Shown: positions 303 to 28,980 of the stretch, piece by piece
How the letters are laid out: the number at the start of each line of letters is the position of its first letter
How positions within the stretch are numbered: position 1 is the stretch's first letter
The notes under the pieces: generated by a model
Databases searched by the model: none
What the model was told of the DNA's origin: nothing
Seen by the model: the letters and a program-made list of their open reading frames with translations, nothing else
Translations under genes and position numbers: made by a program
Assembly: GCA_050694275.1 (NCBI GenBank)
Contig: JBOGXF010000053.1
Location: forward strand, 8,382 to 72,381
Length of the DNA: 64,000 bases
Source of the DNA: Actinomycetota bacterium
Lineage (GTDB): Bacteria; Actinomycetota; CADDZG01; WHSQ01
Direction of reading: 5' to 3'

Positions 303-629
303 TCACCGCTCGTTGGGGGGACCGACCATGACCAGGTCGCCGTCGATCTTGACCTCGTACGTGGGTTCGGGTCGAGTCGCCGGCAGGATCCGCACCTCGC
401 CCGTCTTAACGTTGAAACAAGAACCGTGGAGCGGACATTCCACCTCCATCTCGTCGGGATCGAATTCGCCCTCGGTGAGGTATGCCTCTTCGTGCGTGCA
501 GATGTCGCCGAGCGCGTAGACGTCCTCGCCCACTCGATAGAGGCCGACCAGGTCCCCCCTCACGACCACCTGCTTCATCCCCCCGTCGGGGATCTCGTCC
601 ATCTTCGCAACAGCTTCGTACTCGGCCAT
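303..629 (-). CDS. Rieske [2Fe-2S] ferredoxin-like protein of the suf operon
   Basis: This is the last 108 aa of track ORF 303..1322 (MAEYEAVAKMDEIPDGG...). Rieske motifs CTHEEA (C-x-H) and CPLHGSCF (C-x2-H) are present. The start ATG 627-629 overlaps the sufD stop (ATGA). The upstream part of the track ORF is out-of-frame overlap with sufD. Confidence 0.85.
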   Translation of the reverse strand: MAEYEAVAKMDEIPDGGMKQVVVRGDLVGLYRVGEDVYALGDICTHEEAYLTEGEFDPDEMEVECPLHGSCFNVKTGEVRILPATRPEPTYEVKIDGDLVMVGPPNER

Positions 630-1861
630 CACGCCGCTCCCCGAACGATCTGTTCGCCCTCGACCTTCAGCGCGATGACCCGGGCGAGCTTCTCGCGCAC
701 CGATTCGATCCGGATGCGATCGAGCACGTCCCCGAAGAACCCGAACACGATGAGCTTCTGCGCGGTCACCCGGTCGATGCCCCGACTCATGAGATAGAAC
801 AGGTGCTCTTCCTCGACGGGTGCGACCGTCGCGCCGTGCGTGCATCGCACCTCGTTTGCCTCGATTTCGAGCTGTGGGATGGACCGGGCGATCGCTTCCT
901 CGGAGAGGACCACGTTCCGGTTCGCTTGATAGGCATCGGTTCCCTGTGCGCCCTTGGCGACGCGGATCAAACCCGAGTATTCCGAGCGCGACTTCTCCTT
1001 GAGGGCGCCCTTGTAGAGGAGGTCCGAGGTCGCGTGTGGCGCATCGTGACTCTGTAGGGTGCGCTGCGCGAAATGCTGATCGGTATCGGCAAAGTAAAGC
1101 CCGAGCATCTCGGAGAAAGAACCCTCGCCGACGAGCACGGACTCGACCTGGGTGCGAGCGAACACCGCACCGAGATTCACGGCGAGGCTTCGCACGGTCG
1201 CGTCCCGGTCCGCCGTGAAACGCTGCGTCTGAAAATGGTGGACGTTGCGACCCCACTCCTGCAACGAGATGTAGTTGACGGTCGATCCTCGCCCGGCGGT
1301 GACCTCGACCACGCTCGAGCACAGAGAAGGTTTTGCGCCCGTGGGGGATGCGGAGCGATCGACAACCGTCAACGAGGCGTTCTCCTCGATCACGATCGTG
1401 AGATGAGGAAACGTGGAGCCCCCGTCCTCGATTTCACGCACGATCTCTATGGGCATTTCGACCTCGACGTTGCTCGGGATGTAGATGAGCAGATCGTCGG
1501 AGTGAAATGCTCCGTGAAGGGCGGTGAACTTGTGCTCGTCGACCGCGACGTGAGTGAAGAAATACTCCTCGAGCAGGTCCTCGTGGTCGCGCGCCGCGGT
1601 CGCGAGATCTGCGACGACGACGCCCTTCTTCACGAGGTCGGAAGACGGTTCGGGGACGCTCGAGCGCAGTTGCGGAGGATCGAACACCGAGAAGTCGAAC
1701 CGGCGCACGTCGATGTAGCGCCACTCTTCGCTCTTCGGGTCGGGCAGCTCGAGCTTTTCGAACGCGTCGAACGCGGCGACTCGCCGCTCGGCGATCCAGG
1801 AGGGCTCGCCGAGCCCGTCACTCAGGGCCCGCACGGCTTCCTTGGTCAGCTTGTCGGTCAT
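629..1861 (-). CDS. sufD: Fe-S cluster assembly protein SufD
   Basis: 410-aa ORF with a SufB/SufD-family C-terminal region (..[22 protein letters not shown]..). It lies between the Rieske/sufC genes and a suf-type promoter region. Confidence 0.9.
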   Translation of the reverse strand: MTDKLTKEAVRALSDGLGEPSWIAERRVAAFDAFEKLELPDPKSEEWRYIDVRRFDFSVFDPPQLRSSVPEPSSDLVKKGVVVADLATAARDHEDLLEEYFFTHVAVDEHKFTALHGAFHSDDLLIYIPSNVEVEMPIEIVREIEDGGSTFPHLTIVIEENASLTVVDRSASPTGAKPSLCSSVVEVTAGRGSTVNYISLQEWGRNVHHFQTQRFTADRDATVRSLAVNLGAVFARTQVESVLVGEGSFSEMLGLYFADTDQHFAQRTLQSHDAPHATSDLLYKGALKEKSRSEYSGLIRVAKGAQGTDAYQANRNVVLSEEAIARSIPQLEIEANEVRCTHGATVAPVEEEHLFYLMSRGIDRVTAQKLIVFGFFGDVLDRIRIESVREKLARVIALKVEGEQIVRGAA

Positions 1862-1943
1862 GCGAGAGGCTTCTCCTTCGGCCGTCGGCAGGCGGGATCC
1901 GGCGCCGGGGCCGATCGCTTGTGAACGCTTTCACGATGTTACC

Positions 1944-1991
1944 AGTTAGGGTTGCCTAACTCCACGGTCGCGAGCTGCATTTACCCTGCTC
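1944..1991. promoter_or_regulatory. Candidate operator/promoter module upstream of sufD: palindrome AGTTAGG-GTTG-CCTAACT (1944-1961), 18 nt, then TTTACCCTGCTC (1980-1991)
   Basis: Perfect 7-bp inverted arms, 83 nt upstream of the sufD start, in the divergent sufD/EamA intergenic region. The same bipartite arrangement with identical 18-nt spacing recurs upstream of sufB (9555-9602). Confidence 0.6.
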
Positions 1992-2059
1992 ACCATGCAT
2001 GAACCCGAATTGGGAGGGGGCTCCTGAAGGGGAGCCTTGCCGGGCTGGTCGCGGTCGCG

Positions 2060-2914
2060 GTGGCCGCCGCGCTGTGGGCGGTCGCCGCCAACGTCGCGAG
2101 CGCTCTGTTCGAAGTCGGCGTCGACCCAATCCACCTCGCTGAGGCGCGGGCGATCGTCGCGGCCGCAGGAATCGTTTTCATTCCCGGAGCTTGGACGCGC
2201 TCTCGTGGCGAGACCCCGCTGGGTGCACTTGTGGCTCTTGGTCTCTCGATCGCCCTCGTGAACGCGGCCTACTACCTCGCCATCGACCGGCTGGCCGTCG
2301 CCGTCGCCATCGTTCTTCAGTACACGGCGCCCGCCATGGTCGTTGCCTGGACCGCGGTCGCCTCCCGCCGGCGACCCTCCCCCCAGATCCTCGCCACGCT
2401 CGGCCTCGCGGTCGCCGGGGTCGTCATGGTCTCCGGACTCGTGACTCAGGGGGTGGGCCGGATAGACGCGTTCGGCGTGCTGATGGGGATCGCGTCGGCG
2501 GTTCTCTTCGCGACCTACACCTTGCTCAGCGAGAAGACCTCCGCGACCTACGGTCCGATCGGAGCAATGTCTCGAGCCTTTGTAGTCGCAAGCGTCGCGT
2601 GGCTCATCTTCCAGATTCCCAGGGGGTGGCCCCCGGGGCTTCTGGAAGGCACCAACGAATGGGGGGTGCTGTACGTCGGTATCGCCGGAACCCTCGCGCC
2701 GTTCTTGCTCTTTGTGTGGGGCATCGGGCGAATCCAGGCCGAGCGTGCCGCGATCGCCGCCACACTCGAGCCGGTCCTCGCCGGGCTGATCGCGTTTGCT
2801 TTCTTGGGACAAAGCCTCACCCCCGCCCAGATCGCAGGGGGCGTGCTGGTCATGGTCGCGGTCGTCGCGCTGCAGGCGAGAAGGCGCGAGCCATTGATCG
2901 CCGCGGAACCTTGA
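2060..2914 (+). CDS. EamA/DMT-superfamily transporter
   Basis: 284-aa polytopic membrane ORF with two EamA-like halves (..LQYTAPAMVVAW.., ..ATLEPVLAGLIAFAFLGQ..). The start is uncertain: GTG at 2060, with in-frame CTG at 2024/2045 possible. An in-frame stop at 2000-2002 bounds it. Confidence 0.7.
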   Translation: MAAALWAVAANVASALFEVGVDPIHLAEARAIVAAAGIVFIPGAWTRSRGETPLGALVALGLSIALVNAAYYLAIDRLAVAVAIVLQYTAPAMVVAWTAVASRRRPSPQILATLGLAVAGVVMVSGLVTQGVGRIDAFGVLMGIASAVLFATYTLLSEKTSATYGPIGAMSRAFVVASVAWLIFQIPRGWPPGLLEGTNEWGVLYVGIAGTLAPFLLFVWGIGRIQAERAAIAATLEPVLAGLIAFAFLGQSLTPAQIAGGVLVMVAVVALQARRREPLIAAEP

Positions 2915-2932
2915 GCCCACACTTAGTTCGAG

Positions 2933-5431
2933 TCAGCGAGTCGTGCCAGCGCGAACGTCGTTGCTGTTCTCATCGTCCCGCGTGGATGCGCTCAGGGGAA
3001 CCTCGCCCGCAACCGTGGTTCCCCGCTTGGGGTGTGAGTCGATGCTCAGGTCGCCCCCCAGGGAAGCGATTCGGTCGGTCATATTCTGGATCCCGTCACC
3101 GTGACGGACGGAGGCAGGGTCGAATCCCGGTCCCAGGTCGTCTATCGAGAACCTCAGCCTGTCTTTGTCGGCCTCGAGCGTGACGGACACCGGCCCGGCA
3201 CCAGCGTGCTTGACTGCGTTCTGTATCGCCTCGAGGCAGCAGAAATAGACGGCGTTTTCGATCTCCGTCGGCAATCTGGTCACGACGTTCCCCGTGATGC
3301 GCACATCGACGGGACACCTGCGAGCATGGGCCTCGAGGGCGGAGACGAGACCCTTGTCCGACAACACGGGAGGGAAAATCCCCCGCGCCAGGTCTCGCAG
3401 GGTCTGCAAGGCGTCGGTGGTGTCGGTCTGGAGCTCATCCAGCAGACGAGAGGCTTCCGAGGGATCGGTAAGGGCCCTCTCCTGAGCCAGGCGGAGCTTT
3501 ATGGAGAGAGCTACGAGCTGCTGTTGTGCCCCGTCGTGAATGTCGCGCTCGAGTCGTCTTCTCTCCGCGTCCTGGGCGGAGACGATGCGGTGGCGAGACG
3601 CCTGCAGGTCTGCGAGTCGCGCCTGCAGCTCTACGGTCAACTGAGCGTTCTTCAGGACGAGTCCGGCCTGTGACGCGACATCCTGCAGCAACTGCTCTTC
3701 GACCGGCGTAAGTTCCTCCCCAGTCCCTGCGACCAGGGTGATCGCACCCAGCAACTCGCCCTGGTGGCGCACCGGAACGGTCCGATCCGCACCCGCAACG
3801 GAGAATTCGTCCCCATTTATCGGCAGGCGATAGTGGGTTTCCGCCTCTTCCGGCCACGAGACCGAACGGACCATCTCCGCGTCGACCTTCAGCCAGATGT
3901 CGACCCGCGCCGCGCCCGTTGCCTCGCCTACCGTCTGAGCCATCCGCGGGAGCACCTCGTCGACCGCGTAGGCGTCGCCGACCCGCTTCGAGAACTCGGT
4001 CAGGACCTCATAAGGAGTCGCTCTCTTCCCATAGACGAGCCGGTTGACGAGCTGGCGCGCGCGCTCCCGCAAGGGCTGGAACGCGAGGGCCACGATCGCG
4101 GTGAGCAGGATCGACAGCACGAGGTTTCCCCGGCTCCCGACGCCCAGCGCCGTTCCAACGACCACCACCACCCCGAGGTAGACGAGGGTTATCAACCCCG
4201 CCAGGAGACCGTAGACGAGGGTCCTGTTGATGACGCGGTCGATGTCCCACAGCCGGAATCGGATCAGCCCGGCGAACAGCGCGACGGGAATGACCGTAAA
4301 CACCAACCTGAATATCCGGAAGGCGAACCTGGCGCTGTTGTTTCCCGAGAACTCCGCACCGATGAACAACGGGTCGGTCGCGGTGTTGTCCTCATAGATA
4401 GCGACATTGTGCAGGTCCGCGTCGAAGTTGGTGAAGCGTATCGCATGCTCTCGCCCGGCCACAAGGGTGATCCTGTTTTGGTTGAAGTCGTTGTCGCGCG
4501 CACTTAGAGCCAGGGGACGGGAGATCTCCTGCGCCTCGGACGAGTTCGGGCCCACGACCTCGACGATGCCGATCATGTCGTCGGGATGGGGATCGCAGCG
4601 GAAGAAGTAGGTCCCCTCCGCCGGCGCGGTGACCTCGTACACGACTTCCTCTTTGCGCTCCTCGGGCCCCCCGGAGGTCGTAAACAGCGCAAGGGGGACC
4701 GCGACGGATAGAGCCAGGGCGAGCGCGCCCAGAAGCACTTTGGACTGCTGACGGCTTTCCGCCGACGCCGGACGCAAAACGCGCACGAGCTGAGCCGCCA
4801 GGCCGGCCACCGCGATGAAGATGCCGAACACGAGCACGAGCCCGAGCGTGTGGTCGTCGGTGGTGATCAGCGACAGCCCGGTCGCGACGAGGGCGAGGAA
4901 GGCAAGAACCGGCACCTGAAGCATCTGAGTGAGCCAGTGGCGGGGGCGCAGCCGTCCTTCCGGGAACAGGAGCAAAGCGAAGAAGTAGCACAGTCCGGAG
5001 ATCACGTGCAGCAAGACGTGCCACACGTCCGCTTGCGACAGAAATGAGGCCGGAATCACCTGGAGGGCATCGTGTCCCTGCAGATTGAAGGCGACCGAGG
5101 TCCCGACCAAGCCGAACGCGAGCAACCGGGCGGTGAGATCGCCCGGCCGGAGCTTGATCAGAAGCAGACCGAGCCCCAGATTGAAGACGCTGAAGAGGTA
5201 GTCGAGCACGACCTGGCCGACCGGCTGGGCACTGTGGGTCGTGTGGGCGACGTTGAGTGCAACCTGCGCCGACAGACCGTCGCCTTGCCCCCACCGATGC
5301 AGGGCGTCATGGAAAGCGGGCCACTCCGAGGCCACAGCCGGAAGCACCCCCAGCAGCAGCCACAGGCTCGCAGTTCCGAATGCAAAGATGAAGGCCGCGA
5401 GAAAAGCCGCGTCCCGTCGAGAGGATTGCAT
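2933..5431 (-). CDS. Sensor histidine kinase: multi-TM N-terminus, cupredoxin-like extracytoplasmic loop, GAF-like domain, HisKA_3 and HATPase_c
   Basis: 832 aa. The HisKA_3 H-box is ERRRLERDIHDGAQQQLVAL. The ATPase N/G boxes are YFCCLEAIQNAVKHA and DDLGPGF. There are many hydrophobic helices in aa 1-250 and 372-460. The loop at aa ~251-372 carries FFRCDPHPDDM and DLHNVAI. Confidence 0.9.
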   Translation of the reverse strand: MQSSRRDAAFLAAFIFAFGTASLWLLLGVLPAVASEWPAFHDALHRWGQGDGLSAQVALNVAHTTHSAQPVGQVVLDYLFSVFNLGLGLLLIKLRPGDLTARLLAFGLVGTSVAFNLQGHDALQVIPASFLSQADVWHVLLHVISGLCYFFALLLFPEGRLRPRHWLTQMLQVPVLAFLALVATGLSLITTDDHTLGLVLVFGIFIAVAGLAAQLVRVLRPASAESRQQSKVLLGALALALSVAVPLALFTTSGGPEERKEEVVYEVTAPAEGTYFFRCDPHPDDMIGIVEVVGPNSSEAQEISRPLALSARDNDFNQNRITLVAGREHAIRFTNFDADLHNVAIYEDNTATDPLFIGAEFSGNNSARFAFRIFRLVFTVIPVALFAGLIRFRLWDIDRVINRTLVYGLLAGLITLVYLGVVVVVGTALGVGSRGNLVLSILLTAIVALAFQPLRERARQLVNRLVYGKRATPYEVLTEFSKRVGDAYAVDEVLPRMAQTVGEATGAARVDIWLKVDAEMVRSVSWPEEAETHYRLPINGDEFSVAGADRTVPVRHQGELLGAITLVAGTGEELTPVEEQLLQDVASQAGLVLKNAQLTVELQARLADLQASRHRIVSAQDAERRRLERDIHDGAQQQLVALSIKLRLAQERALTDPSEASRLLDELQTDTTDALQTLRDLARGIFPPVLSDKGLVSALEAHARRCPVDVRITGNVVTRLPTEIENAVYFCCLEAIQNAVKHAGAGPVSVTLEADKDRLRFSIDDLGPGFDPASVRHGDGIQNMTDRIASLGGDLSIDSHPKRGTTVAGEVPLSASTRDDENSNDVRAGTTR

Positions 5432-5538
5432 ACAAGAATTGTGTACGAACCCCCACCATCAGGAAAAGGGGGGTGGCGGCGACTTCCGGTGGTGCCAGCA
5501 CCACTGCCCATGTCTCCCCGACTCCCTATTCTGAGGGC

Positions 5539-6204
5539 ATGGCCATCAGGGTGGTGCTCGCCGAAGACAATCTCCTCGTGCGGGAGGGCGTGGCCGGTCT
5601 GCTCGCCATGCACGACGACGTCGACGTCGTGGCCGCATGCGTGGGTCTCGACGACCTGCTCGAGGCGGTCGAGCGCGAGCGCCCCGATGTCGTGCTCACC
5701 GACATCCGCATGCCGCCGACCAACAGCGATGAAGGCATCCGAGCGGCAAGCCAGCTACGTGATTCTTTCCCCGAGATCGGAGTCGTCGTGTTGAGCCAGC
5801 ACGACGAGCCCGAATACGCCCTCGCCCTCCTCGAGCAGGGATCCGAGCGCCGCGCCTACCTCCTCAAGGAGCGCGTGTCGGACCCCGCCCAGTTGGTGGG
5901 AGCGATCCGAGCGGTGGCCGAGGGCGGTTCGGTGATCGATCCGAAGGTGGTCGAATCGCTCGTGGACGCGCGCGCTCGCGCAGACCAATCGCCGCTCGCT
6001 TTTCTCACCGCGCGGGAGCGTGAGGTTCTGTCCGAGATGGCGCAGGGCAAGACCAACGCCGGAATCGCTGAGAGCCTCGTCCTGACCGAACGCGCCATCG
6101 AGAAACACATCAACTCGATCTTCTCGAAGCTCCATCTGTCGCACGAGTCGAACGTTCACAAACGGGTCAAAGCCGTCCTTCTTTTTCTCTCGGAGAATCA
6201 CTGA
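5539..6204 (+). CDS. NarL/LuxR-family response regulator (REC + HTH_LuxR)
   Basis: MAIRVVLAEDNLLVREGV..DVVLTDIRMPP.. is the receiver. The C-terminal LTAREREVLSEMAQGKTNAGIAESLVLTERAIEKHINSIFSKL is a LuxR-type HTH. I chose the internal ATG at 5539 of track ORF 5473..6204. The gene is divergent from the kinase. Confidence 0.9.
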   Translation: MAIRVVLAEDNLLVREGVAGLLAMHDDVDVVAACVGLDDLLEAVERERPDVVLTDIRMPPTNSDEGIRAASQLRDSFPEIGVVVLSQHDEPEYALALLEQGSERRAYLLKERVSDPAQLVGAIRAVAEGGSVIDPKVVESLVDARARADQSPLAFLTAREREVLSEMAQGKTNAGIAESLVLTERAIEKHINSIFSKLHLSHESNVHKRVKAVLLFLSENH

Positions 6205-6318
6205 CCCGCCCCACAGTAGTGCTGCCCTCCTGTGATCGTCGTGTCACCACCGTTTTGCCGTCTACCGGGTCGCGTCACGATGACGACGCAAGGTTTCCCC
6301 AGAGAAAGGGAGGACGGT

Positions 6319-6954
6319 ATGAAGCATTGGGTCAAGAAGACCATCGGACCGGTGATTCTCGGCGCGATGATCGTCGCGGCGTTCACCACGGGTGGGTCGG
6401 CCGGCACCGCTCGGCCTCGGGGTCTGGTGGCGGACATGCAAGACGCCACCGGCGCGTCCGTCGGCAAGATTAGGTTCATTCCTAAAGACGACGGAAAAGT
6501 GATCGTGAAAGCTCGAGTGAGTGGACTCACGCCCGGCTTCCACGGTTTTCACGTGCACACCGCCGGGGCCTGTGATCCGGACGCTCAGGACACGGCCGGC
6601 GCGACGGTGCCCTTCTTCACCGCCGGCGGTCACTACAACCCGGTGACCACCAACTCTCACGGTTTGCACGCGGGAGACATGCCGCCGCTGCTAGTCACGG
6701 ACGACGGGAGCGCGGTGCTCAGGCTCGCGACCGACCGATTCCGCAACCGCGACCTGCTCGACGAGGACGGGAGCGCGGTGATCATCCACGCGGGTCCCGA
6801 CAACCTCGCTCACGTCCCGGCGACGACGCCGGCCGGAGGCGAGCGCTACCACTCGCACGTAGACGACGTGTTCGGACCCGACACCGCGACCAGGGCGACC
6901 GGCGACGCCGGTGCGCGCTTCGCATGCGGGGTGGTAACCAAAGCCCCTCGCTAG
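6319..6954 (+). CDS. sodC: Cu/Zn superoxide dismutase, secreted
   Basis: Contains GFHGFHVHTAGACD, GGHYNP, HGLHAGDMPPL, AVIIHAGPDN and GDAGARFACGVV. The signal-like N-terminus MKHWVKKTIGPVILGAMIVAAF is preceded by the RBS GAAAGGGAGGA. I chose the internal ATG at 6319 of ORF 6232..6954. Confidence 0.9.
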   Translation: MKHWVKKTIGPVILGAMIVAAFTTGGSAGTARPRGLVADMQDATGASVGKIRFIPKDDGKVIVKARVSGLTPGFHGFHVHTAGACDPDAQDTAGATVPFFTAGGHYNPVTTNSHGLHAGDMPPLLVTDDGSAVLRLATDRFRNRDLLDEDGSAVIIHAGPDNLAHVPATTPAGGERYHSHVDDVFGPDTATRATGDAGARFACGVVTKAPR

Positions 6955-7008
6955 AAGGCAGCACGTGATTGGGGGCGCCGGTAGCCCGGCGTCCCCTTTC
7001 ACCCGTGC

Positions 7009-8046
7009 TTAACCGGTGGCGAGGTCGGCGAGGCGGCGGCCGATGAGGGGGGCGAACTTGAACCCGTGTCCGCTGCACGGCGACCCCACGACGATCGGGC
7101 CGTGCCGCTCGAGGATGAAGCGCTCGTCGTCCGTGTTCGTGTAGAGGCAGGTCTCGGCGTGGTGAGGGACGGGGTGAGCGTGGGGGAAGCGCTCGGCGAC
7201 CCACGCCGCCACTCGCTTGATCGACTCCTCGTTCACGGAACCGTCCTCGTCGGGATCGGTCGTCGGCCCGGCGATGTGCTCCCCCGCCTTGATTCCCTGG
7301 CCGGGACTCGGGAGAGCGTAGATGTGTGGCGGGCCCCATTCGACCAGAGTCGGAAGGGTCTCGCCGTCGTGGGCGAAGAACCCGACGGTCTCGCGCGTCG
7401 CCCGGGTGGGAAGGTCGATGCCGACCGGTTCCAGAAGCCCCCGCGCCCATGCTCCGGCGGTGACGACCGCGACCGGAGCGACGAAGACCTCGTCGCCTGC
7501 ATGGATCGTCGCCTGCTCGTCGCTCACTTCCAGGCGTTCGACCCGGCGGCGCTCGAGGATCTCGGCCTTTGCTTTCTGCGCGGAGGCGACGAACGAATTC
7601 AGGGCGCGATCGGCGAGACAGATACCGGCGTCAGGGTGATACAAGACGGTCCGGTCGGCAGGTAGAGATACCGCCGGGAACCGCCGGGCCGCGTCGCGTC
7701 CTTCGAGCATCTCGAAAGGCGCGCCCTTGTCCTGAAGAGCGCGCGCGTTGGCGTCGATATTCGGGCCGACATCGAGGCCCCCCGTGGTGACGATCAGCGC
7801 GTCGTCCGCCTCGCGTTCCGCCTCCCGCCACAGATCCAGGGCTTCCATCGCCATCCCGACGTAGAGCGGGTCGGGATAGGAGAAGCGAAAGATGCGGGCG
7901 CGACCGTGGCTCGAACCGCGCGTGTGGCCGAGACCGAATTGCTCCAGCAGCGCGACTTTCTTTCCCGCTCGGGCGAGTGCGCGCGCGGTCGCCGATCCCA
8001 TGACTCCCGCACCGACAACGATGACGTCGAACGACCGCACGCTCAC
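7009..8046 (-). CDS. FAD-dependent oxidoreductase, monomeric sarcosine oxidase / N-methyltryptophan oxidase (SolA) family
   Basis: N-terminal dinucleotide fold DVIVVGAGVMGSATARALARAG and the family signature ..SPCSGHGFKFAP.. near the C-terminus. It starts 24 nt after the sufB stop on the same strand. Confidence 0.8.
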   Translation of the reverse strand: MSVRSFDVIVVGAGVMGSATARALARAGKKVALLEQFGLGHTRGSSHGRARIFRFSYPDPLYVGMAMEALDLWREAEREADDALIVTTGGLDVGPNIDANARALQDKGAPFEMLEGRDAARRFPAVSLPADRTVLYHPDAGICLADRALNSFVASAQKAKAEILERRRVERLEVSDEQATIHAGDEVFVAPVAVVTAGAWARGLLEPVGIDLPTRATRETVGFFAHDGETLPTLVEWGPPHIYALPSPGQGIKAGEHIAGPTTDPDEDGSVNEESIKRVAAWVAERFPHAHPVPHHAETCLYTNTDDERFILERHGPIVVGSPCSGHGFKFAPLIGRRLADLATG

Positions 8047-8070
8047 ACAACAACTCTACGTGCGGATCCT

Positions 8071-9504
8071 TTAGCCGACCGAGCCCTCCATCTGGAGCTC
8101 GACGAGGCGCTGGAGCTCGACCGCGTACTCCATCGGCAGCTCCTTGGTGATCGGCTCGATGAAGCCGCGCACGATCATCTGCATCGCCTCGGTCTCGGAC
8201 AGGCCCCGGCTCATCAGGTAGAAGAGCTGCTCGTCGGACACCTTGGAGACGGTCGCCTCATGGCTGACCGCGGCCGACTCCTCCTCGATCTCCATGTAGG
8301 GATAGGTGTCGCTTCGAGACGTCTCGTCGAGGATGAGCGCGTCGCAGATCACGTGGGACTTCGAGTGATCGGCCCCCTCCTCGATTCGGACGAGCCCACG
8401 GTATCCGGCGCGTCCGCCGTCCTTGCTGATCGACTTCGACGTGATCGCCGAGGACGTGTCCGGGGCGACGTGGATGACCTTGCCGCCGGCGTCCTGATGC
8501 TGGCCCTCGCCGGCGTAGGCGACCGACAGGACCTCGCCGCGGGCGTGCTTGCCCATGAGGTAGATCGACGGGTACTTCATGGTCACCTTCGAGCCCAAGT
8601 TGCCGTCGACCCATTCCATGATGGCGCCGTCGTATGCCACCGCTCGCTTGGTCACGAGGTTGTAGACGTTGTTCGACCAGTTCTGGATCGTCGTGTAGCG
8701 ACAGCGCGCGTCGTTCTTGACGATGATCTCGACCACCGCGGAGTGGAGCGAGTCGCTCGTGTAGACGGGGGCCGAGCAACCCTCGACGTAATGCACGTAG
8801 CTGCCTTCGTCGACGATGATCAGCGTCCGCTCGAACTGACCCATGTTCTCCTGGTTGATGCGGAAGTAGGCCTGGAGCGGGATCTCGACCTCGGTGTTGG
8901 GCGGCACGTAGATGAATGATCCGCCGGACCACACCGACGTGTTGAGCGCCGAGAACTTGTTGTCTGCCGGCGGGATGATCGTCCCGAAGTACTGCTTGAC
9001 GACGTCGGGGTGCTCGCGCAGGGCCGTGTCCATGTCCATGAAGAGGACGCCGCGGGCCTCGAGCTCTTCCTTGGTCTTGTGGTAGACGACCTCAGACTCG
9101 TACTGACTCGAAACGCCCCCGAGATAGTTCTTCTCGGCTTCGGGGATGCCGAGCTTGTCCCACGTCGCCTTGATGTCCTCGGGCATGTCGTCCCACGACT
9201 TCACCTGCTCCATCGGCTTGATGTAGTAGTAGATGTCGTCGAAGTCGATCGTCGAGAGGTCGGCCCCCCACGTCGGCAGCGGCTTCCGCAAGAAGATGTC
9301 GAGCGACTTGTGGCGGATCTTCCGCATCCAGTCGGGCTCGCCCTTCTTGTCGCTCATCATGTCGATGACCGCGTGATTGAGGCCCTTTTCGGGCTTCTCC
9401 TTGTAGGCGGTCTTGTCGTGCCAGCCGTATTTGTAGGCGCCCTTCAGCGCCCTTACCTGCTCGTTTTCCTGCTGGACCTTGAGGTCTTCGGCCTCAGTCG
9501 ACAC
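8071..9504 (-). CDS. sufB: Fe-S cluster assembly scaffold SufB
   Basis: 477 aa with highly conserved SufB blocks (..[18 protein letters not shown].., ..[28 protein letters not shown].., ..[20 protein letters not shown]..). GTG start at 9502-9504. Confidence 0.95.
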
Positions 9505-28575: not shown

Positions 28576-28980
28576 CTATTCCGTTCCAACGACCGCGAAC
28601 TCACCTACCATGCCCTGGTCGGCGTGGTACCGGCAAAAGACCTGATAGATACCGGGCTCCAGGATGTCTCCGACCGGAGCGAACCGCAGCTCCTTGCCGG
28701 GCCGAACGTCTCGGTCGATGTCCGTGTCCACGACAGTGAAGTTGTGGAGGTTGCGGCCCTGGTTCTTGATCACGAGCGGCCGGTCCGCGGCGATCTCGGG
28801 AGCTTCGTCGGGATGGATGTCGTGAAAGTGGTTGTCGACCGCGGTGGACACGAACGGACCGGTGGTGGGTTGAAGCTTGCCCTCCCTTACGAAGGGGGAA
28901 TTCTCGCCACCGGAGCCGCACGCCGCCGACACGAGAAGGAGTGCAGCAGCGGCCCCCACAACCACTCGTCTACAGGACAT
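28576..28980 (-). CDS. Cupredoxin (type-1 copper) lipoprotein
   Basis: Lipobox LLLVSAACGSG. The canonical ligand order is NLHNFTVV (His) ... YQVFCRYHADQGMVGEF (Cys-x2-His-x4-Met). The start is assigned to the ATG at 28978-28980, which overlaps the ABC ATPase gene end by 11 nt. Confidence 0.75.
   Translation of the reverse strand: MSCRRVVVGAAAALLLVSAACGSGGENSPFVREGKLQPTTGPFVSTAVDNHFHDIHPDEAPEIAADRPLVIKNQGRNLHNFTVVDTDIDRDVRPGKELRFAPVGDILEPGIYQVFCRYHADQGMVGEFAVVGTE

What the first reader, a model, noticed from the sequence alone, without database searches (positions are those of the whole stretch)
4316..4681. Histidine kinase with an apparently circularly permuted type-1-copper (cupredoxin) sensor loop
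The ~120-aa extracytoplasmic loop between TM helices (aa ~251-372 of the 832-aa kinase) first contains EGTYFFRCDPHPDDMIGIVEVVG. This is Cys-x2-His-x3-Met followed by a strand, the C-terminal ligand loop of plastocyanin, amicyanin or pseudoazurin-type cupredoxins. About 55 residues later comes ITLVAGREHAIRFTNFDADLHNVAIYED, which matches the N-terminal strands and the upstream His ligand (the 'HNV' motif). Canonical cupredoxins have the opposite order. The ordinary cupredoxin in this same window (28576-28980) shows it: NLHNFTVV ... FCRYHADQGMVGEF. So all four T1Cu ligands are present but permuted, and they are grafted into a multi-TM GAF/HisKA_3 kinase. The neighbours are a divergent NarL-type regulator followed by Cu/Zn SOD, inside the split Fe-S assembly operon. 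That context suggests a copper- or redox-sensing two-component system. I do not know of a described kinase with this sensor architecture. Neither the fold assignment nor the claim of novelty could be tested here, because I ran no structure prediction or database search.
Basis: partly seen in the sequence, partly recalled or inferred. Interest (0 to 1): 0.72.

Follow-up and report, generated by a model that had tools for sequence, protein, structure and literature searches.

The report
Permuted blue-copper domain inside sensor kinase
A membrane sensor kinase of an uncultured actinobacterium carries, in an outward-facing loop, a complete blue-copper (cupredoxin) domain whose two halves are in swapped order. 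About a hundred relatives keep this arrangement, and it usually sits next to a copper-zinc superoxide dismutase gene, so it looks like an undescribed sensor built around a copper centre.

Summary
Residues 261-363 of the 832-aa HisKA_3 kinase (window 2933-5431, minus strand) form a complete type-1-copper cupredoxin in circularly permuted order (strands 6-7-8, linker, strands 1-5). It is inserted between TM7 and TM8 of a 10-TM scaffold and faces outward. Pfam and PDB profiles match the two halves in swapped order, and the re-permuted sequence matches full-length models above the curated cut-offs. The loop is collinear with the junction between two domains of tandem-cupredoxin proteins, which indicates how the permutation arose. 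Cys279, His282, Met286 and His341-Asn342 are invariant in about 97 homologues that go down to 38% identity. AlphaFold2 folds the loop within one chain (pLDDT 92, pTM 0.81). Foldseek, which depends on residue order, finds nothing, and ligand distances could not be measured. The pairing of a divergent NarL-type regulator with sodC recurs in 12 of 15 species. Paralogous kinases that lack the insert are always preceded by a lipoprotein with two cupredoxin domains (6 of 6 loci). A version without the kinase feeds a SpoIIE/STAS partner-switching cascade (6 of 6 loci). The most likely function is a sensor based on the copper centre, reading its redox state or, alternatively, whether copper is bound, and controlling the exported SOD. 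Copper binding is untested. No description was found in the literature.

The parts
2933..5431 (-). Sensor histidine kinase gene, 832 aa (identical to P0001, annotated at NCBI as 'histidine kinase', Actinomycetota MAG)
   Evidence: ORF list; 100% identical database entry; Pfam domains; full-length AlphaFold2 model with pLDDT 83.7
4676..5431 (-). N-terminal membrane scaffold, TM1-TM7 (aa 1-252). Invariant histidines lie on the outer face: H41, H45, H66, H120, H138, H142, H194
   Evidence: AlphaFold2 helices at 5-36, 71-94, 99-114, 128-155, 166-219 and 224-252, pLDDT above 90; invariant columns; no Pfam or PDB relative
4343..4651 (-). Circularly permuted type-1-copper cupredoxin domain (aa 261-363), inserted in the outward-facing TM7-TM8 loop
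   Evidence: absent from paralogues that share the scaffold
4553..4651 (-). Segment A (aa 261-293): equivalent to cupredoxin strands 6, 7 and 8 with the ligand loop C279-D-P-H282-P-D-D-M286
   Evidence: Matches Copper-bind model positions 70-98/99; amicyanin 72-104 and plastocyanin 65-96; predicted strands at 261-268, 273-278 and 287-293
4517..4552 (-). Linker (aa 294-305) that joins the former C-terminus (strand 8) to the former N-terminus (strand 1). Its length varies among homologues
   Evidence: Columns that are mostly gaps in the alignment; Met-to-Phe316 spacing of 19-32 residues, median 24; short helix at 298-302 in the model
4343..4516 (-). Segment B (aa 306-363): equivalent to cupredoxin strands 1-5 with the upstream ligand His341 and Asn342
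   Evidence: Matches Cupredoxin_1 model positions 15-63/104; auracyanin A 19-61; 49% identity to P0164 residues 52-116; predicted strands at 307-312, 320-324, 328-335, 344-346 and 354-357
4595..4597 (-). Codon of Cys279 (thiolate ligand)
   Evidence: conserved in 98/98
4586..4588 (-). Codon of His282 (ligand-loop His)
   Evidence: conserved in 98/98
4574..4576 (-). Codon of Met286 (axial ligand)
   Evidence: conserved in 98/98
4406..4411 (-). Codons of His341-Asn342 (upstream His ligand and the cupredoxin-typical Asn)
   Evidence: conserved in 97/98, the exception being the truncated entry P0094
4031..4336 (-). TM8-TM10 (aa 366-467). These three helices connect the outward-facing insert to the cytoplasmic domains
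   Evidence: AlphaFold2 helices at 366-390, 398-430 and 437-467; the conserved FRxFR...RFRLWD motif is also present in paralogues without the insert
3722..3964 (-). Cytoplasmic GAF-like domain (aa ~490-570)
   Evidence: Partial Pfam GAF match at 551-592, E 2.9e-6; alpha/beta segment in the model
2993..3565 (-). Kinase core: HisKA_3 (aa 623-689, phospho-accepting His632) and HATPase_c (aa 726-813)
   Evidence: Pfam E 1.4e-13 and 3.1e-11; invariant H632-D-G, N738 and D765xGxG; Foldseek matches DesK
5492..5501 (.). Palindrome GTGCCAGCAC in the 107-bp divergent promoter region, centred 42 bp upstream of the regulator's ATG. Candidate operator
   Evidence: Conserved as GTGC-N2-GCAC in 14 aligned intergenic regions of nearly constant length, 99-113 bp. 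That the regulator binds it is an inference
5539..6204 (+). NarL/LuxR-type response regulator, 221 aa, transcribed divergently from the kinase
   Evidence: Pfam Response_reg and GerE; orthologues of 67-75% identity at the same position in 15 loci; start chosen to match the 220-221 aa orthologues
6217..6254 (+). Conserved elements upstream of sodC (AGTGCTGC ... GTGTCACCACCGTT), similar to the divergent-promoter palindrome
   Evidence: Alignment of 12 regulator-sodC spacers. Function is inferred
6319..6954 (+). Exported Cu,Zn superoxide dismutase (SodC), 211 aa, with an N-terminal signal or anchor helix
   Evidence: Pfam Sod_Cu E 4e-30; closest NCBIfam model is mycobacterial SodC; present after the regulator in 12 of 15 loci

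Best explanation
The loop is a genuine, complete type-1 ('blue') copper cupredoxin domain in circularly permuted order (strands 6-7-8, linker, strands 1-5). It is inserted in the outward-facing TM7-TM8 turn of a 10-TM HisKA_3 histidine kinase. It most likely arose in one step, from the junction of a tandem-cupredoxin gene (the end of one repeat plus the start of the next). I propose that the domain is the sensory element. It binds copper through Cys279, His282 and Met286 (tethered to TM7) and His341 (tethered to TM8). The state of that copper centre would be passed through the TM7/TM8 hairpin, TM9-TM10 and the GAF-like domain to the kinase core. The kinase then sets the phosphorylation of the divergently encoded NarL-type regulator, which controls its own promoter and the adjacent exported Cu,Zn superoxide dismutase gene. 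My preferred signal is the redox state of the copper, Cu(II) versus Cu(I), as set by extracytoplasmic superoxide, oxidants or an electron donor. Whether copper is bound at all is the main alternative. Shown here: the domain identity, the permutation, ligand conservation, outward topology, and the gene associations. Inferred: copper binding, the signal, how it is transmitted, and sodC as the target.
For: Identity and permutation: swapped-order matches to Pfam and PDB profiles and full-length matches after re-permutation. Two alignments in swapped order with the single-domain cupredoxin P0164. A collinear 108-residue alignment across the inter-domain junction of the tandem protein P0128 (its two canonical domains are confirmed). 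Many tandem proteins align contiguously to loop residues 12-122 in the exhaustive search. Functional site: C279, P281, H282, M286 and H341-N342 are invariant in about 97 homologues down to 38% identity, together with the cupredoxin-typical Gly and aromatic residues. Fold: AlphaFold2 gives pLDDT 97-98 across both halves and the linker, pTM 0.81, and eight strands. The same result is obtained in the full-length model, with three TM helices between the insert and the cytoplasmic domains, so the insert faces outward. Insertion: paralogues share the whole scaffold and kinase but have about 20 residues at this position. Sensory role: kinases without the insert are directly preceded by a lipoprotein with two cupredoxin domains that carry C..H..M motifs, in 6 of 6 distinct loci. 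The same scaffold-plus-permuted-cupredoxin module without a kinase is followed by GAF-SpoIIE, two STAS proteins and a 235-aa protein in 6 of 6 loci. Output: the kinase, divergent regulator and sodC occur together in 12 of 15 species-level loci whose other neighbours are unrelated. A palindrome is conserved in the divergent promoter and similar elements lie upstream of sodC. The kinase core is intact. For redox rather than occupancy (from general knowledge, not tested here): T1 copper sites are electron-transfer centres that hold copper almost irreversibly, which suits a redox read-out better than a reversible metal sensor. Short amicyanin-like ligand loops show redox-linked protonation and flipping of the His ligand. 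None of more than 25 loci examined contains a copper-homeostasis gene, whereas SodC and the partner-switching cascade are stress outputs.
Against: Foldseek found no cupredoxin for the loop model; this is expected for a permutation but gives no support. T1 sites are rigid and change little between Cu(I) and Cu(II), or between empty and loaded forms, so how a signal would reach the membrane helices is unclear. The residues flanking His282 are mostly acidic (D280 in 99%, position 285 acidic in about 85%). That would repel superoxide and could favour capture of copper ions. The link to sodC rests on synteny and shared DNA motifs only, and 3 of 15 loci lack sodC. SodC is itself a copper enzyme, which fits a copper-supply signal equally well. 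All sequences come from uncultured organisms and there are no experimental data.
Confidence: 0.45

Rival explanations
1. Copper-supply sensor. The permuted cupredoxin is empty when copper is scarce and loaded when copper is available. Loading links the TM7-tethered half (Cys, His, Met) to the TM8-tethered half (His341) and switches the kinase, so that the copper-requiring SodC is made only when its cofactor is available.
For: The only conserved target gene encodes a copper enzyme in the same compartment. The ligands sit on the two halves, which are tethered to different TM helices. Conserved acidic residues flank the exposed His ligand. The outer-face His cluster of the scaffold could funnel metal ions. 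Copper-dependent control of Cu,Zn-SOD is known in plants and yeast (general knowledge).
Against: T1 sites bind copper extremely tightly and release it very slowly, which is a poor basis for a reversible sensor (general knowledge). Known copper-sensing kinases use different sites and folds. No copper export, chaperone or oxidase genes lie near any of more than 25 loci. The kinase-less variant feeds a partner-switching stress cascade.
Confidence: 0.3
2. Domain-swapped dimer. The two halves do not fold together within one chain. Segment A of one kinase subunit pairs with segment B of the other, so that two copper sites form across the dimer interface and report on or enforce dimer geometry.
For: Histidine kinases are obligate dimers. 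The insert corresponds to a junction between two separate domains in tandem proteins. Some homologues have short linkers: the Met-to-Phe spacing goes down to 19 residues, the same range as tandem proteins, where the halves belong to different domains.
Against: AlphaFold2 folds the single chain into one compact domain with pLDDT 97-98 for both halves and the linker, and pTM 0.81. The full-length model gives the same result. No multimer prediction could be run.
Confidence: 0.12
3. Not the sensor. The cupredoxin is a docking or electron-transfer accessory, or only a structural spacer. The real signal is read by the His-rich outer face of the 7-TM scaffold or by the cytoplasmic GAF-like domain.
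For: H41, H45, H66 and H138 (and mostly H142) are invariant in kinases with and without the insert. The scaffold has no known relatives. A GAF-like domain is present.
Against: Strict invariance of all four copper ligands plus Asn342 argues for a working copper site. The scaffold is always associated with a cupredoxin, either within the same protein or encoded next to it. Some kinase-less members (P0086) have lost H41, H45 and H66 but keep the T1 ligands.
Confidence: 0.12
4. Artefact: an assembly chimera, a frameshift, or a chance resemblance in a low-complexity loop.
For: The sequence comes from a metagenome-assembled genome.
Against: The same architecture occurs in about 98 distinct protein clusters from independent assemblies in NCBI, JGI, ENA and Logan. 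The reading frame is uninterrupted. Profile matches are significant.
Confidence: 0.01

Closest known systems
Single-domain type-1 copper cupredoxins (amicyanin, plastocyanin, pseudoazurin, auracyanin; Pfam PF00127 and PF13473)
   Same: The ligand set is His...Cys-x2-His-x3-Met. An Asn follows the first His. The motifs C-x-P-H and M-x-G are present, with an amicyanin-like short ligand loop. There are eight predicted strands, and profile matches to both halves are significant.
   Different: The strand order is 6-7-8-1-2-3-4-5 instead of 1-8. The domain is not a free or lipid-anchored electron carrier but an insert between two TM helices of a histidine kinase.
Tandem-cupredoxin membrane or secreted proteins with CDVHPxxM and PHNFAVY motifs (e.g. 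P0126, P0128, P0129, P0121; Actinomycetota, Dehalococcoidia, methanogens)
   Same: These are the closest sequence relatives, at 33-40% identity. The kinase loop is collinear with their inter-domain junction.
   Different: Their domains are complete and in canonical order. They have no kinase and no polytopic scaffold.
Engineered circular permutants of azurin (cpN42, cpF114)
   Same: They show that a T1-copper cupredoxin tolerates a change of chain connectivity while keeping its main structural characteristics (bioRxiv 10.1101/2025.10.10.681544).
   Different: They are man-made, cut at different positions, and are not part of a signalling protein. I found no natural permuted T1 cupredoxin in the literature searched.
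HisKA_3 kinases with NarL-type regulators (DesK/DesR, NarX/NarL, LiaS/LiaR)
   Same: The kinase core and partner regulator type are the same. Foldseek matches DesK at E ~1e-8, and Pfam and NCBIfam agree.
   Different: The input is different: 10 TM helices with an outward-facing copper domain, not a membrane-fluidity, nitrate or envelope-stress sensor.
Copper-sensing two-component systems CusS/CusR and CopS/CopR (from general knowledge)
   Same: An extracytoplasmic metal site in a histidine kinase.
   Different: CusS uses a PDC/PAS-like periplasmic domain between two TM helices, with interfacial His/Met/Phe sites. It has HisKA and an OmpR-type regulator, and it controls copper efflux. None of these features is found here.
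Cofactor-based redox sensor kinases (FixL/DosS haem, NreB Fe-S, ArcB/RegB quinone-thiol; from general knowledge)
   Same: The proposed logic is the same: a bound redox cofactor reports on the oxidant or electron status.
   Different: Those cofactors are cytoplasmic or membrane-embedded. To my knowledge, an outward-facing blue-copper centre has not been described as a sensory cofactor.

Membership tests
Type-1 copper cupredoxin (PF00127 / PF13473) | Four ligands: an upstream His, plus Cys-x(n)-His-x(n)-Met in the C-terminal loop | tested here: met
   H341; C279-x2-H282-x3-M286. Conserved in 97-98 of 98 homologues and aligned to the ligand columns of plastocyanin and auracyanin.
Type-1 copper cupredoxin (PF00127 / PF13473) | Asn directly after the upstream His, and Pro within the C-x-P-H motif | tested here: met
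   H341-N342 in 99%; P281 in 100%.
Type-1 copper cupredoxin (PF00127 / PF13473) | Profile match above the curated cut-off over the whole domain | tested here: inconclusive
   In the native order there are only two partial matches. For the excised loop, Copper-bind reaches 26.0 bits (cut-off 21.2) but Cupredoxin_1 reaches only 23.9 (cut-off 27). For the whole kinase, both are below cut-off (19.2 and 16.8 bits). After re-permutation, both models match full-length above cut-off (28.5 and 29.4 bits).
Type-1 copper cupredoxin (PF00127 / PF13473) | Canonical strand order 1-8 (upstream His N-terminal to the Cys/His/Met loop) | tested here: not met
   The order is inverted relative to Pfam models, PDB chains and the single-domain relative P0164. 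It is therefore a permuted variant, not a canonical member.
Type-1 copper cupredoxin (PF00127 / PF13473) | Greek-key beta-sandwich with the four ligands converging on one site | tested here: inconclusive
   AlphaFold2 gives a confident eight-strand domain (pLDDT 91.8, pTM 0.81). Foldseek, which depends on residue order, gives no cupredoxin match.
Type-1 copper cupredoxin (PF00127 / PF13473) | Binds copper with the blue (~600 nm) band and T1 EPR signature | not testable with these tools
   Requires protein expression and spectroscopy.
Circular permutant arising by duplication and truncation | Two alignments in swapped order against a single-domain relative | tested here: met
   Against P0164: loop residues 53-116 align to 52-116 (49% identity) and loop residues 9-36 align to 113-140 (54% identity).
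Circular permutant arising by duplication and truncation | Collinear with the junction of a tandem duplicate | tested here: met
   A 108-residue alignment with one gap to P0128 residues 175-282, spanning domain 1 into domain 2. The same holds for many proteins of about 300 aa.
HisKA_3 sensor histidine kinase with NarL-type regulator | HisKA_3 dimerisation domain with the phospho-accepting His, and HATPase_c with N and G boxes | tested here: met
   Pfam E 1.4e-13 and 3.1e-11; invariant H632, N738, D765xGxG; structural match to DesK.
HisKA_3 sensor histidine kinase with NarL-type regulator | Adjacent Response_reg + GerE regulator | tested here: met
   Window 5539-6204. Orthologue adjacent in 15 of 15 loci that have upstream sequence.
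CusS/CopS-type copper-sensing two-component system | Periplasmic PDC-like sensor between two TM helices; OmpR-type regulator; copper-efflux regulon | tested here: not met
   There are 10 TM helices and a cupredoxin insert, a NarL-type regulator, and no copper-efflux genes nearby.

The most novel reading that the evidence does not exclude
The scaffold plus the permuted cupredoxin is a new, portable class of extracytoplasmic sensor based on a bound cofactor. A blue-copper centre, possibly wired to a second metal site formed by the invariant outer-face histidines of the 7-TM scaffold, measures superoxide, oxidant or electron flux outside the cell. It relays this either to a histidine kinase (output: exported SOD) or to a SpoIIE/STAS partner-switching cascade. 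In sister systems the copper protein is a separate lipoprotein co-sensor.
Probability: 0.2. Interest if true: 0.9.

Novelty: new variant of a known kind. Interest (0 to 1): 0.74.

Why it matters
Three points would interest specialists. First, this would be a natural circular permutation of a type-1 copper cupredoxin. The likely intermediate, a tandem-repeat junction, still exists in related proteins, which makes it a clean example of permutation by duplication in a classic metalloprotein fold. Second, blue-copper centres are known as electron carriers and enzyme sites, not as input domains of signalling proteins. A kinase that reads a copper centre outside the membrane would add a new kind of cofactor-based sensor. 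Third, the conserved pairing with an exported Cu,Zn-SOD gives a simple, testable regulatory circuit for periplasmic or cell-wall superoxide defence in widespread uncultured soil Actinomycetota. The cis (inserted) and trans (lipoprotein) variants offer a natural experiment on how accessory proteins become fused into sensors.

Tried and rejected
Foldseek of the loop model against PDB and BFVD gave no hit with E below 0.2. Only weak matches to assorted beta-sandwiches appeared (SOD, nanobodies, chaperones) and no cupredoxin. I take this as a limit of residue-order-dependent alignment on a permuted domain, not as evidence against the fold, but it gives no support.

Foldseek of the full-length model returned only the kinase core (DesK and similar) and said nothing about the sensor.

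The profile of the 7-TM scaffold against PDB, and Pfam at E up to 10, found nothing.

NCBIfam has no model for the sensor part. The kinase-core matches (MctS, UhpB, LiaS, NarX) are all far below their cut-offs.

The small genes next to the system led nowhere. These were the 187-189 aa gene after the kinase in L001 and L003, and the 195 aa membrane protein that replaces sodC in L005 and L009. They have no Pfam family and do not recur.

I first thought the C-terminal 'ARFAF' was a second copy of strand 6. I rejected this because the FRxF motif is present in paralogues without the insert, and it is predicted to be helical as the start of TM8.

Literature searches found only engineered azurin permutants and unrelated papers. 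The term combinations were cupredoxin with 'circularly permuted', with permutation, or with 'histidine kinase' and 'sensor domain'; 'plastocyanin-like' with 'sensor kinase'; and sodC with two-component, copper and Actinobacteria.


Full report
**What is there.** The finding lies in the ORF at 2933-5431 on the minus strand. It encodes an 832-aa protein that is identical to a database entry from an Actinomycetota metagenome-assembled genome, annotated only as 'histidine kinase'. The stated coordinates 4316-4681 correspond exactly to aa 251-372. Pfam finds HisKA_3 (aa 623-689), HATPase_c (726-813) and a partial GAF domain. In the loop it finds two partial cupredoxin matches in the wrong order. 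Copper-bind covers aa 265-292 and matches model positions 70-98 of 99. Cupredoxin_1 covers aa 299-347 and matches model positions 15-63 of 104.

**Is the permutation real?** Four independent tests say yes.
- When the second half of the loop is placed before the first, both Pfam models match nearly full-length and above their curated cut-offs. The sequence then also aligns in one piece to plastocyanin 1pla residues 14-87.
- A profile of 59 homologous loops hits auracyanin A (E 8.7e-8), plastocyanins and amicyanins. Where both halves match, they are in swapped order.
- Against the closest single-domain cupredoxin found (P0164, 141 aa), BLASTP gives two alignments in swapped order, with 49% and 54% identity.
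- Against proteins with two or three tandem canonical cupredoxin domains (P0126, P0128, P0129; Pfam confirmation), the loop aligns in one collinear stretch across the junction between two domains. The P0128 alignment covers 108 residues with one gap, E 7e-17. The exhaustive search shows many such cases.

This is the textbook signature of a circular permutation derived from a tandem duplication: the end of one repeat, the inter-repeat linker, and the start of the next repeat.

**Conservation.** A search with the N-terminal 488 aa returned 1603 relatives. Of the best 120, 98 carry the loop, and every one has C-x-P-H-x(2-4)-M followed by H-N. In the alignment, C279, P281, H282 and M286 are conserved in 98 of 98. 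H341-N342 is conserved in 97 of 98, the exception being a truncated entry. G273, Y275, F316, G358 and F361 are nearly invariant, although overall identity falls to 38%. A remnant that no longer bound copper would not keep the full T1 ligand set, the Asn that follows the first His, and the C-x-P-H and M-x-G motifs.

**Structure.** AlphaFold2 with this alignment gives a confident single-chain domain for aa 252-378 (mean pLDDT 91.8, pTM 0.81, and pLDDT 94-98 over both halves and the linker). It has eight strands. The C-terminal 'ARFAFRIFRLVF' is predicted as a helix. The full-length model (pLDDT 83.7) reproduces this. It shows seven helices before the insert and three after it (366-390, 398-430, 437-467) before the cytoplasmic GAF-like and kinase domains. 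With the positive-inside pattern of the short loops, the insert therefore lies outside the cell. Foldseek found no significant match for the loop model in PDB or BFVD, and only DesK-type kinase cores for the full model. Foldseek aligns in residue order, so a permuted domain is expected to escape it. That test remains open.

**It is an insertion into a pre-existing scaffold.** About 20 of the best 120 relatives are kinases of roughly 745 aa that align with the query from end to end, through all ten TM helices, the GAF-like domain and the kinase core. They have only about 20 residues between TM7 and TM8. The FRxF motif at the start of TM8 is present in these too, so it belongs to the scaffold and not to the cupredoxin. 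The insert is about 100 residues, one cupredoxin domain. The scaffold itself has no relative in Pfam or PDB.

**The scaffold always travels with a cupredoxin.** In six distinct loci, the insert-less kinases are directly preceded (4-38 nt gaps) by a gene of 375-422 aa. It encodes a lipoprotein with a lipobox and two canonical-order cupredoxin domains that carry C..H..M motifs. The copper domain is therefore either built into the kinase or encoded next to it. This is a 'Rosetta-stone' argument that it is the kinase's co-sensor. A third architecture of about 550-630 aa has the scaffold and the permuted insert but no kinase. In six of six loci it is followed by a GAF-SpoIIE-HATPase_c_2 protein, two STAS proteins and a 235-aa protein, which together form a partner-switching cascade. 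The module is thus a portable input device.

**Output.** In the window the kinase is divergent from a NarL-type regulator (5539-6204), which is followed by an exported Cu,Zn-SOD (6319-6954). The same triad is found in 12 of 15 species-level loci, and the other neighbours differ. The three exceptions have an unrelated membrane protein or nothing in place of sodC.

The kinase-regulator spacer has a nearly constant length (99-113 bp). It contains a conserved palindrome GTGC-N2-GCAC (window 5492-5501), centred 42 bp upstream of the regulator's start codon. TA-rich hexamers lie a few bases before both start codons, which suggests leaderless transcripts. The regulator-sodC spacer carries related conserved elements (window 6217-6254) about 60 nt upstream of a strong ribosome-binding site. 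That the regulator binds these elements is an inference.

**Mechanism.** What is shown is an outward-facing, conserved T1-type copper site. Three of its ligands are on the segment attached to TM7 and the fourth is on the segment attached to TM8. It sits in a catalytically intact HisKA_3 kinase that is genetically tied to sodC.

I infer that the state of the copper centre is the signal. I favour redox state (confidence about 0.45). T1 centres are electron-transfer sites that hold copper almost irreversibly. Short amicyanin-like ligand loops undergo redox-linked protonation of the His ligand. No copper-homeostasis gene appears in any of more than 25 loci. The known outputs, an exported SOD and a partner-switching cascade, are stress responses.

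The main alternative (about 0.3) is sensing of copper supply for the copper enzyme SodC. The acidic residues around His282 and the outer-face His cluster are more in line with that. A domain-swapped dimer (about 0.12) and a non-sensory role (about 0.12) cannot be excluded.

**Comparison and novelty.** The domain works like, and descends from, amicyanin- or plastocyanin-type cupredoxins. It fails one defining feature of the family, the canonical strand order, so it is a permuted variant. The kinase core is an ordinary DesK/NarX-class HisKA_3 kinase. It is not a CusS/CopS-type copper sensor: the fold, the regulator type and the regulon all differ.

Circular permutants of azurin have been engineered and keep the main structural characteristics of the wild-type protein (bioRxiv 10.1101/2025.10.10.681544). 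I found no report of a natural permuted T1 cupredoxin, nor of a cupredoxin as a kinase input domain. Automated JGI labels ('histidine kinase/plastocyanin') show that the similarity has been noticed by pipelines, but nobody has interpreted it. I rate this a new variant of a known kind, with high interest and an untested function.

Noticed in passing
window 4850-5311 (-), kinase aa 41-194: Seven invariant histidines lie on the outer face or outer leaflet of the 7-TM scaffold: H41/H45 and H138/H142 as HxxxH pairs, plus H66, H120 and H194. H41, H45, H66 and H138 are also invariant in kinases without the insert, and H142 in 17 of 20 of them. H120 and H194 are invariant only in insert-bearing kinases. 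This could be a second metal or cofactor site next to the cupredoxin. The scaffold has no Pfam or PDB relative.
   Followed up: partly
L049:3704-4963, L051:3695-4963, L052:3767-4978, L053:2794-3969, L054:1221-3613, L055:1-889: Paralogous kinases that lack the insert are directly preceded by lipoproteins of 375-422 aa (one entry is truncated). These have two canonical-order cupredoxin domains with C..H..M motifs, and L054 has two such genes. This looks like a trans version of the same sensor.
   Followed up: partly
L004:6001-10856; also L012, L019, L020, L021, L024: A kinase-less form (~550-630 aa) of the scaffold plus permuted cupredoxin, with extra N-terminal TM helices. It is followed in 6 of 6 loci by GAF-SpoIIE-HATPase_c_2, two STAS proteins and a conserved 235-aa protein with no Pfam family. 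A BTAD/AAA_16/TPR regulator is also nearby in most of them.
   Followed up: partly
window 5432-5538 and 6205-6318: The divergent promoter region has a nearly fixed length (99-113 bp in 14 loci). It holds a conserved palindrome GTGC-N2-GCAC (5492-5501) and TA-rich hexamers 6-9 nt before both start codons, which suggests leaderless mRNAs. Related conserved elements (6217-6254) lie upstream of sodC, which unlike the other two genes has a strong GAAAGGAG ribosome-binding site.
   Followed up: partly
window 303-9504: In this genome, sufB (8071-9504, -) is separated from sufD (629-1861, -) and a Rieske gene (303-629, -) by five genes: an EamA transporter, the kinase, the regulator, SodC and a DAO-family FAD oxidoreductase. 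In other genomes the kinase-regulator-SodC triad sits in unrelated contexts, so it behaves as a movable three-gene unit.
   Followed up: partly
CRYHADQGM). Its Pfam match is weak: Cupredoxin_1 at 24.9 bits, below the cut-off of 27, covering only the C-terminal part of the model (positions 43-102 of 104).
   Followed up: partly
loop model of window aa 252-378: Method note: Foldseek (3Di+AA) returned no cupredoxin at E up to 10 for a confidently modelled permuted cupredoxin. Fold searches that depend on residue order can therefore miss circular permutants completely, whereas sequence profiles still detect the two halves.
   Followed up: yes
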